Shown here piece by piece: positions 15,640 to 16,497 of a stretch of 64,000 nt of DNA. Position 1 is the stretch's first letter. Every line of letters starts with the position of its first letter. This stretch comes from Escherichia coli. Lineage in GTDB: Bacteria; Pseudomonadota; Gammaproteobacteria; Enterobacterales; Enterobacteriaceae. The position numbers and the translations under genes were made by a program. The notes beneath the pieces were generated by a model. The model had not been told where the DNA came from and did not search any database. It saw only the letters and a program-made list of their open reading frames with translations. Location: NCBI RefSeq assembly GCF_024298765.1, contig NZ_CP101210.1. One strand, written 5' to 3'.

Positions 15640-16497
15640 ATGTCAGAACCTACTCTCACCAACCCCGAAGTATTAACCGATCATACCGATGTGATTTGCT
15701 CCACCAGTATTGAACGCATCGTCACCGGACGTAATGCGGCGCTGACACAGATTGAAGCATTGCTCCACCAGATTAACGATATTTCGACACAAACCCTCAG
15801 TATCGGCGGAAAAACCGCCCTGGACTGGGTCATGAAACAGGATTTTCGCTGTGGTTGCTGGCTTATGGAGAAGCCTGAAACAGCGATGAAAGCCATTACC
15901 CGCAATCTCGATCGCGGTAAATGGCGGGATTTAATGAAACGCTCAGGGATGCTGTCGATTATGGACGCTCAGGCCCGTAACCAGTGGTACAACAGCCTAG
16001 AAAAGGATGATATTCCGGTGGTCAGCGAAGCGAATATTCTGAGCACCTTTAAGCAACTGCATTTGAACAAGGGTGAGGTGTTTTAGCGTGGCGTCATTAA
16101 CGTTTTCAAAGGATTAAGCTGGAATTTTAAGACGAATTCGCCCTGCGGGTTTGGAGCGAAAATCATTGTGACGGGACTGGTCAAATTCGACCGGTGGGGA
16201 TTCGGGCTTAACCATGGCTGACAGCGTGACCGGTTAGCAGACCTTGAGCGAATGCTGATGATCCTTGACGGGAAGCCTGTTCCCGACAACCGCGCTGACG
16301 TTACCCGTCGGCTGGGAGACCATATTCATGAAAACCGGCACAGCAACCACTATGAGGATGAGATGTTTGTGATTAAGTATTTTCAGAAGGGAACTGCACA
16401 AATCGTATTCAAGCGACCTGAGCTGATTGATAAGCTGAACAACATCATCGCCCGACACCAATCCGGGAGCACTGCCAGCGAGATGAGAGGTGAGTGA
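15640..16497 (+). pseudogene. Island gene of unknown function (~285 codons) inactivated by two in-frame stop codons
   Basis: One continuous frame 15640..16497 with TAG at 16084-16086 and TGA at 16219-16221; protein-like translation continues across both stops. Confidence 0.5.

What the first reader, a model, noticed from the sequence alone, without database searches (positions are those of the whole stretch)
15640..16497. Island gene inactivated by two in-frame nonsense codons
A single reading frame runs 15640..16497, interrupted only by TAG (16084-16086) and TGA (16219-16221). The translation between and after the stops continues to look protein-like, so this is a decaying gene of about 285 codons rather than three separate small genes. 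The family is not recognised.
Basis: seen in the sequence. Interest (0 to 1): 0.4.

Follow-up and report, generated by a model that had tools for sequence, protein, structure and literature searches.

The report
Decayed DUF4942 island gene at aspV
This is an ordinary dead gene: the last gene of an E. coli genomic island next to a tRNA-Asp gene, from a widespread family of unknown function (DUF4942), has been knocked out by two stop codons plus two further lesions, and public annotation already marks it as a pseudogene.

Summary
One frame runs 15640..16497 (+) and is broken only by TAG 16084-86 and TGA 16219-21. Shuffles of the stretch give a mean of 14.4 stops, P(<=2) = 5e-5.

The reading as one decaying gene is also correct. 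Pfam DUF4942 matches residues 87-274, across both stops, at E = 4.9e-60. Intact orthologues of 281-283 aa sit at the same aspV site in other E. coli. There TAG is Glu149 (GAG/GAA) and TGA is Trp194 (TGG).

- a net +1 insertion at 16459-60 that rewrites the C-terminus (ancestral stop 16484-86);
- His254->Gln at a residue invariant in 106 of 106 homologues.

RefSeq/PGAP already annotates this locus in CFT073 and Nissle 1917 as "DUF4942 domain-containing protein, pseudo, internal stop". An identical or near-identical allele occurs in 196 complete genomes, so it is not a sequencing error.

Verdict: real, ordinary, already known.

The parts
15640..16497 (+). DUF4942-family pseudogene, whole present-day frame. 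It is the last gene of the aspV island.
   Evidence: PGAP annotates the identical stretch in CFT073 (C_RS01200) and Nissle 1917 (CIW80_RS18675) as pseudo, 'internal stop'.
15627..15631 (+). Shine-Dalgarno-like AAGGA, 8 nt before the ATG at 15640. The start signals are still intact.
   Evidence: Sequence read; conserved in the orthologues. Function is inferred.
16084..16086 (+). Nonsense lesion 1: TAG at codon 149. The ancestral codon is Glu (GAG or GAA), a G-to-T change at 16084.
   Evidence: Alignment A1. Position 149 is Glu in 85 and Asp in 13 of 106 homologues.
16219..16221 (+). Nonsense lesion 2: TGA at codon 194. The ancestral codon is Trp (TGG), a G-to-A change at 16221.
   Evidence: Alignment A1. 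Strain 23CRST035 shares it.
16399..16401 (+). Missense lesion: CAA (Gln) at codon 254, where the family has an invariant His (CAC).
   Evidence: window CAA; 23CRST035 and the intact copy CAC. (His in 106 of 106).
16459..16460 (+). Net +1 insertion (CA where the relatives have T). It shifts the frame for the last codons: ...ARHYPGALSAR* becomes ...ARHQSGSTASEMRGE*.
16484..16486 (+). Ancestral stop codon TGA, now out of frame.
15364..15558 (+). Remnant of the upstream DUF957 gene. An IS66 end cuts its 5' part: homology to intact copies starts near 15404. PGAP calls a 64-aa product from a CTG at 15364.
15590..15623 (+). Terminator-like G+C hairpin with a T-rich tail, between DUF957 and the DUF4942 start. 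It is conserved in the orthologous loci.
   Evidence: A pattern match only.
16618..16694 (-). tRNA-Asp (aspV). Its 3' end faces the island, marking the island/core boundary 120 bp after the pseudogene.

Best explanation

Shown: two point mutations made premature stops, Glu149 GAG to TAG and Trp194 TGG to TGA. In this lineage the copy also acquired His254Gln at an invariant residue and a +1 frameshift near the 3' end. At most, a 148-residue N-terminal fragment could be translated. That fragment lacks four of the five family-invariant residues (G151, D201, H254, N267), so the gene no longer makes a functional protein.

Inferred: the decay is neutral loss of a mobile-element gene that had been under strong purifying selection until recently. 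The surrounding module is being eroded at the same time by IS66 and IS630 insertions and by a frameshift in DUF5983.

Inferred role of the intact family: an establishment or anti-restriction-related protein of transferable elements, expressed early after entry into a new host. It may act as a DNA-recognition or partner module for a SAM-dependent methyltransferase. It is not itself a methyltransferase.
For: Pseudogene, shown:
- One frame with two stops.
- The DUF4942 match spans both stops, E = 4.9e-60.
- Intact orthologues of 281-283 aa sit at the same aspV site, and the ancestral codons can be read from alignment A1.
- The +1 insertion and H254Q are further lesions.
- The allele is identical in many independent complete genomes, with 196 records at >=99%.
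- PGAP flags it as pseudo.

Selection:
- dN/dS is 0.07-0.08 against intact or other orthologues at dS about 0.8-1.1.
- dN/dS is 0.65 (7 non-synonymous, 3 synonymous changes) against 23CRST035, which shares both stops.

Independent decay at the same locus: strains 81EVA and 100416 carry a different lesion, a 1-bp deletion.

Neighbourhood erosion.

Family role, inferred:
- 4,353 plasmids carry a homologue, and 4,007 of them are conjugative.
- In an IncI1 plasmid it lies between ardA/psiB and oriT-nikA. In an IncL/M plasmid it lies with klcA and ssb near mobA.
- Samuel & Burstein 2024 (PMC11541004, Supplementary Table 1) list two DUF4942 families enriched in leading regions. Family 24 has 2,171 members, FDR p = 0 and median position 1 from oriT. 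Family 76 has 551 members and p = 2e-100.
- Fusions of an N-terminal DUF4942 with a C-terminal MTS-type methyltransferase occur in bacteria and phages.
- Distant homologues sit in phage or prophage contexts, one beside RadC.
Against: Nothing contradicts the pseudogene reading.

- The relaxed dN/dS after inactivation rests on only 10 substitutions.
- The start codon and the Shine-Dalgarno-like site are intact, so a 148-aa fragment could still be made. Its lack of function is inferred, not shown.
- For the family role there is no experimental evidence.
- PADLOC and NCBIfam give nothing.
- Only 4 of the 150 best cluster representatives carry the methyltransferase fusion, so a link to methylation may not apply to the standalone form.
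Confidence: 0.95

Rival explanations
1. The stretch holds separate small genes. ORF 15640-16086 (148 aa) and ORF 16252-16497 (81 aa) would be independent functional genes, and the shared frame would be coincidental.
For: Both ORFs start with ATG and appear in the mechanical ORF list. The first keeps its Shine-Dalgarno-like site.
Against: - One Pfam domain match runs continuously across both stops.
- tblastn of an intact orthologue is collinear over residues 1-280.
- The best 120 homologues are all 276-284 aa.
- Short entries in the representative list cover different, non-corresponding parts of the protein, as fragments would.
- The 148-aa piece lacks four of the five invariant residues.
- Four of six differences from 23CRST035 within the first 148 codons are non-synonymous.
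Confidence: 0.03
2. The gene is recoded. The stops would be read through (a suppressor tRNA, or selenocysteine at TGA) and a full-length protein would still be made.
For: The frame stays open apart from the two stops. TGA can encode selenocysteine in E. coli.
Against: - Two different stop codons would need two different mechanisms.
- The ancestral residues are Glu and Trp, not Cys or Sec.
- An Rfam scan of 15300-16800 at E <= 1 finds only the tRNA-Asp, with no SECIS or other recoding element.
- The copy also carries a frameshift and has lost the invariant His254.
- dN/dS is relaxed since the stops arose.
Confidence: 0.01
3. The stops are sequencing or assembly errors in this one record.
For: None specific.
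Against: - The 858-bp allele is 100.0% identical in all 46 rows listed at that level. These include separate assemblies of CFT073, Nissle 1917, ATCC 25922 and ABU 83972, and 196 records are >=99% identical.
- A diverged relative at 98.4% identity, 23CRST035, carries the same two stops.
Confidence: 0.01

Closest known systems
[not shown]
   Same: - Collinear over the full length, with 82.9% amino-acid identity to the intact aspV orthologue.
- Same position as the last gene after CbtA, DUF5983 and DUF957, next to the tRNA.
- The SRL island paper lists orf56 as L0010 and DUF4942 (PMC6980539).
   Different: The window copy is inactivated by two nonsense codons, H254Q and a +1 frameshift. It also belongs to a rarer, diverged clade found in 466 of 5,426 genomes. 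The common clade is in 3,952 of 5,426 genomes, with a median of 2 copies each.
YdiA / YgfB of conjugative plasmids (IncF, IncI1, IncL/M): leading-region families 24 and 76 of Samuel & Burstein, Nature 2024
   Same: Homologous over 94-100% of the length at 36-41% identity. It keeps the same companions: KlcA/ArdA antirestriction genes and relatives of DUF905 and DUF932.
   Different: The plasmid copies are intact and lie next to oriT, at median ORF position 1. The window copy is chromosomal and dead, and no oriT or relaxase was looked for in the island.
Phage 'DNA methyltransferases' with an N-terminal DUF4942 (phrog_6263; Pseudomonas phage phiPSA1, 543 aa; Marinomonas phage P12026, 519 aa)
   Same: They share the DUF4942 domain.
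   Different: Those proteins carry an extra C-terminal MTS-type SAM methyltransferase domain. The 281-aa island form has none, and its predicted fold shows no methyltransferase similarity. Labels such as 'restriction endonuclease subunit M' or 'methylase' on the short form look like over-transferred annotation.

Membership tests
Pfam DUF4942 (PF13708) | Profile match above the curated gathering score | tested here: met
   202.9 bits against a cut-off of 25, E = 4.9e-60, profile positions 1-188 of 190.
Pfam DUF4942 (PF13708) | Family-invariant residues W95, G151, D201, H254 and N267, derived here from 106 homologues | tested here: not met
   W95, G151, D201 and N267 are still encoded, but H254 is Gln in the window. 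All except W95 lie after the first stop. The sequence is a member by descent, not a functional member.
Pseudogene (unitary, decayed in place) | Intact full-length orthologues at the same locus, and disabling lesions relative to them | tested here: met
   Intact copies of 281-283 aa lie next to tRNA-Asp in strains 2273-PO3, C 236-04A and VREC0761. The lesions were mapped.
Pseudogene (unitary, decayed in place) | Relaxed selective constraint after inactivation | tested here: inconclusive
   dN/dS is 0.65 between the two stop-bearing alleles, against 0.07-0.08 on the long branches. The first figure rests on only 10 substitutions.
Pseudogene (unitary, decayed in place) | Lesions are real and not sequencing errors | tested here: met
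   The allele is identical in many independent complete assemblies, and the diverged strain 23CRST035 shares both stops.
Plasmid leading-region gene family (YdiA/YgfB) | Homology to the plasmid-borne members | tested here: met
   tblastn of the intact orthologue finds 4,353 plasmids, 4,007 of them conjugative, at 36-41% identity over 94-100% of the length.
Plasmid leading-region gene family (YdiA/YgfB) | Location in the first-transferred DNA next to oriT, transcribed towards oriT | not tested
   This was seen for the plasmid homologues. No oriT or relaxase was searched for in the island, most of which lies outside the window.
SAM-dependent DNA methyltransferase / 'restriction endonuclease subunit M' (a label some databases give) | Class I Rossmann-type SAM-binding domain | tested here: not met
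   - Pfam finds only DUF4942 in the window's translation.
- The AlphaFold model (pLDDT 89.7) is an N-terminal helical part plus a small alpha/beta part.
- The methyltransferase domain is a separate C-terminal addition in the 460-543 aa fusion proteins.

The most novel reading that the evidence does not exclude
The most novel reading not excluded concerns the intact family rather than this dead copy. DUF4942 (YdiA/YgfB) is typically the first gene of a conjugative plasmid to enter a recipient. It could be an uncharacterised establishment or anti-defence factor that is not a methyltransferase. The CP4-like island module ending in DUF4942 would then be a fossil leading region. Its repeated, independent inactivation at aspV (nonsense codons here, a 1-bp deletion in 81EVA and 100416) would mark loss of a function needed only during transfer. 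The window would serve only as one more decayed example.
Probability: 0.25. Interest if true: 0.45.

Novelty: already known. Interest (0 to 1): 0.08.

Why it matters
It matters little. The locus is already annotated as a pseudogene in RefSeq for CFT073, Nissle 1917 and many relatives.

The work adds:
- an exact lesion list (four lesions, not two) with the ancestral codons;
- evidence that inactivation is recent relative to a long history of purifying selection, and predates the split from strain 23CRST035;
- a caution that 'methylase' or 'subunit M' labels on 281-aa DUF4942 proteins are not supported by domain or fold evidence.

The family itself is of moderate interest. It is abundant, positioned next to oriT, and still uncharacterised. 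This copy cannot inform its function.

Tried and rejected
- Sequence search of the PDB with the intact orthologue, with a 106-sequence profile and with a fusion protein gave nothing meaningful.
- NCBIfam and PADLOC gave no hits.
- The afdb50 library was unavailable.
- Literature: 'DUF4942' occurs in only 4 papers, all as annotation-table entries, and 'PF13708' in none.
- An Rfam scan for recoding elements found only the tRNA.
- A search for a second DUF4942 copy inside the window found none. I did not locate the second copy that CFT073 carries elsewhere in its genome (one search reports 2 places).
- Gene neighbourhoods of four distant homologues showed mobile-element settings. One was in a phage gene cluster, one lay next to an integrase and tail genes, and one had N6/N4 methyltransferase genes within 2-4 kb. 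There was no consistent partner gene.

Full report
**Observation.** The frame 15640..16497 on the + strand translates as 285 codons plus a terminal TGA. It has exactly two internal stops, TAG at 16084-86 and TGA at 16219-21. The other five frames of the same stretch carry 6-25 stops. In 20,000 shuffles the mean is 14.4 stops and only 5e-5 of shuffles have two or fewer.

**What it is.** The conceptual translation matches Pfam PF13708 (DUF4942) at 202.9 bits (cut-off 25, E = 4.9e-60). The match covers residues 87-274, so it runs across both stops.

The window is E. coli chromosome of the CFT073/Nissle 1917 type:
- the 1,061 bases around the frame are 100% identical to those strains and many others;
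- the island side is 99.97% identical to Nissle 1917, apart from a 1,558-bp ISEc45 that the window lacks.

RefSeq/PGAP annotates exactly this stretch as "DUF4942 domain-containing protein", pseudo, "internal stop". The locus tags are C_RS01200 in CFT073 and CIW80_RS18675 in Nissle 1917.

It is the last gene of the genomic island inserted at the 3' end of tRNA-Asp (aspV, 16618-16694, minus strand). Core genes dnaQ, rnhA and so on follow.

**Intact relatives and the lesions.** Intact orthologues of 281-283 aa lie at the same place, between DUF957 and tRNA-Asp, in strains 2273-PO3, C 236-04A and VREC0761. Further intact copies lie elsewhere. tblastn of the 2273-PO3 protein covers window 15640-16479 in one collinear piece at 82.9% identity.

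The DNA alignment gives the ancestral codons:
- TAG was GAG/GAA, Glu149. The position is acidic in 98 of 106 homologues.
- TGA was TGG, Trp194.

- A net +1 insertion at 16459-60 (CA where relatives have T). It replaces the conserved C-terminus ...ARHYPGALSAR* with ...ARHQSGSTASEMRGE* and moves the stop from 16484-86 to 16495-97.
- Codon 254 is CAA (Gln), where His is invariant in 106 of 106 homologues.

Strain 23CRST035 is 98.4% identical. It shares both stops but has neither the insertion nor H254Q. The nonsense mutations therefore came first, and the other two lesions accumulated afterwards in the window's lineage.

**Not three genes, not recoding, not an error.**
- Of 2,560 homologues at E <= 1e-3, the best 120 are all 276-284 aa. 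None stops at residue 148.
- The 148-aa N-terminal piece would lack four of the five invariant residues.
- Two different stop codons derived from Glu and Trp, together with a frameshift, argue against programmed read-through. Rfam finds nothing in 15300-16800 except the tRNA.
- The allele is identical in many independent complete assemblies, with 196 records at >=99%.

**Selection.** By the Nei-Gojobori method, dN/dS between the window and the other orthologues is 0.07-0.08 at dS 0.8-1.1. The gene was therefore strongly constrained for most of its history. Between the two stop-bearing alleles it is 0.65, from 7 non-synonymous and 3 synonymous changes. That fits relaxed constraint but rests on few sites.

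Strains 81EVA and 100416 carry an independent 1-bp deletion in their aspV copy, so the locus has decayed at least twice.

The neighbourhood in the window is eroding too:
- DUF5983 is frameshifted.
- IS630 and IS66 copies are inserted, and both are themselves frameshifted.
- The IS66 end has removed the 5' part of DUF957, directly upstream of the pseudogene.

**What the intact family probably does (inference).** DUF4942 is abundant:
- 2,255 clusters at 50% identity;
- a commoner paralogous clade in 3,952 of 5,426 complete E. coli genomes, median two copies each;
- homologues on 4,353 plasmids, 4,007 of them conjugative.

Its plasmid setting points to the leading region. In an IncI1 plasmid it lies between psiB-psiA-ardA and oriT/nikA. 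In an IncL/M (pOXA-48-like) plasmid it lies with klcA and ssb near mobA.

The same table lists relatives of the island's DUF905, DUF932/YafZ and KlcA genes. The island module therefore resembles a plasmid leading region.

**Is it a methyltransferase?** A minority of members are fusions of an N-terminal DUF4942 with a C-terminal MTS-type SAM methyltransferase. Four of the 150 best representatives are of this kind, at 460-468 aa, and phage proteins of 519 and 543 aa have the same layout.

My best guess is an early-expressed establishment or anti-restriction-related protein, possibly a DNA-recognition or partner module for a methyltransferase. This is untested.

**Comparison and verdict.** The sequence is a DUF4942 member by descent and a textbook unitary pseudogene. 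It is already annotated as such. Novelty: already known. Interest: low.

Noticed in passing
window 15364-15558 and about 15395-15404: The left part of the DUF957 gene directly upstream is replaced by the end of an IS66-family element. Homology to intact DUF957 loci begins near 15404. PGAP nevertheless calls a 64-aa 'DUF957 domain-containing protein' from a CTG at 15364, so that CDS is probably a chimeric remnant.
   Followed up: partly
window 15590-15623: A G+C-rich hairpin (GTGCCAGCC...GGCTGGCGC) with a T-rich tail sits 17 nt before the DUF4942 start. It is conserved in the orthologous loci of 2273-PO3 and 23CRST035. It looks like a terminator or attenuator between DUF957 and DUF4942. No sigma-70-like promoter was found between it and the ATG.
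   Followed up: partly
window 13248 (junction), compared with L006 12131-13688: The window lacks the 1,558-bp ISEc45 (IS110-like) insertion that interrupts the IS66 transposase gene in CFT073 and Nissle 1917. The flanks are otherwise 99.97% identical. The source strain is therefore a close relative of these strains, not either of them.
   Followed up: partly
window 11353-15322: A cluster of decayed mobile-element genes. By transfer of the Nissle annotation these are a frameshifted DUF5983, a frameshifted IS630 transposase (11924-12912, minus strand), a frameshifted IS66 tnpC (about 13060-14680, minus strand), an intact IS66 tnpB (14684-15034) and a frameshifted small transposase ORF.
   Followed up: no
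window about 1-4817: Island cargo upstream. By identity to Nissle 1917 it comprises a dynamin-family protein, an RdcB-family 'diguanylate cyclase regulator' and a patatin-like phospholipase in one operon-like block. This resembles LeoABC-type dynamin clusters and was not examined.
   Followed up: no
L003 and L004 (strains 81EVA and 100416), locus positions about 3490-3500: An independent 1-bp deletion frameshifts the aspV DUF4942 copy in a different allele group (85% identical to the window). In 81EVA, PGAP labels the N-terminal fragment 'restriction endonuclease subunit M', a name not supported by domain or fold evidence.
   Followed up: partly
window 24843-24919 and 28269-28463: A second tRNA-Asp (GTC) lies downstream of an rRNA operon, with tRNA-Ala and tRNA-Ile in the 16S-23S spacer. 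This is ordinary rrn architecture. The window therefore holds two identical-anticodon tRNA-Asp genes, and only the one at 16618 is used as an island insertion site.
   Followed up: no
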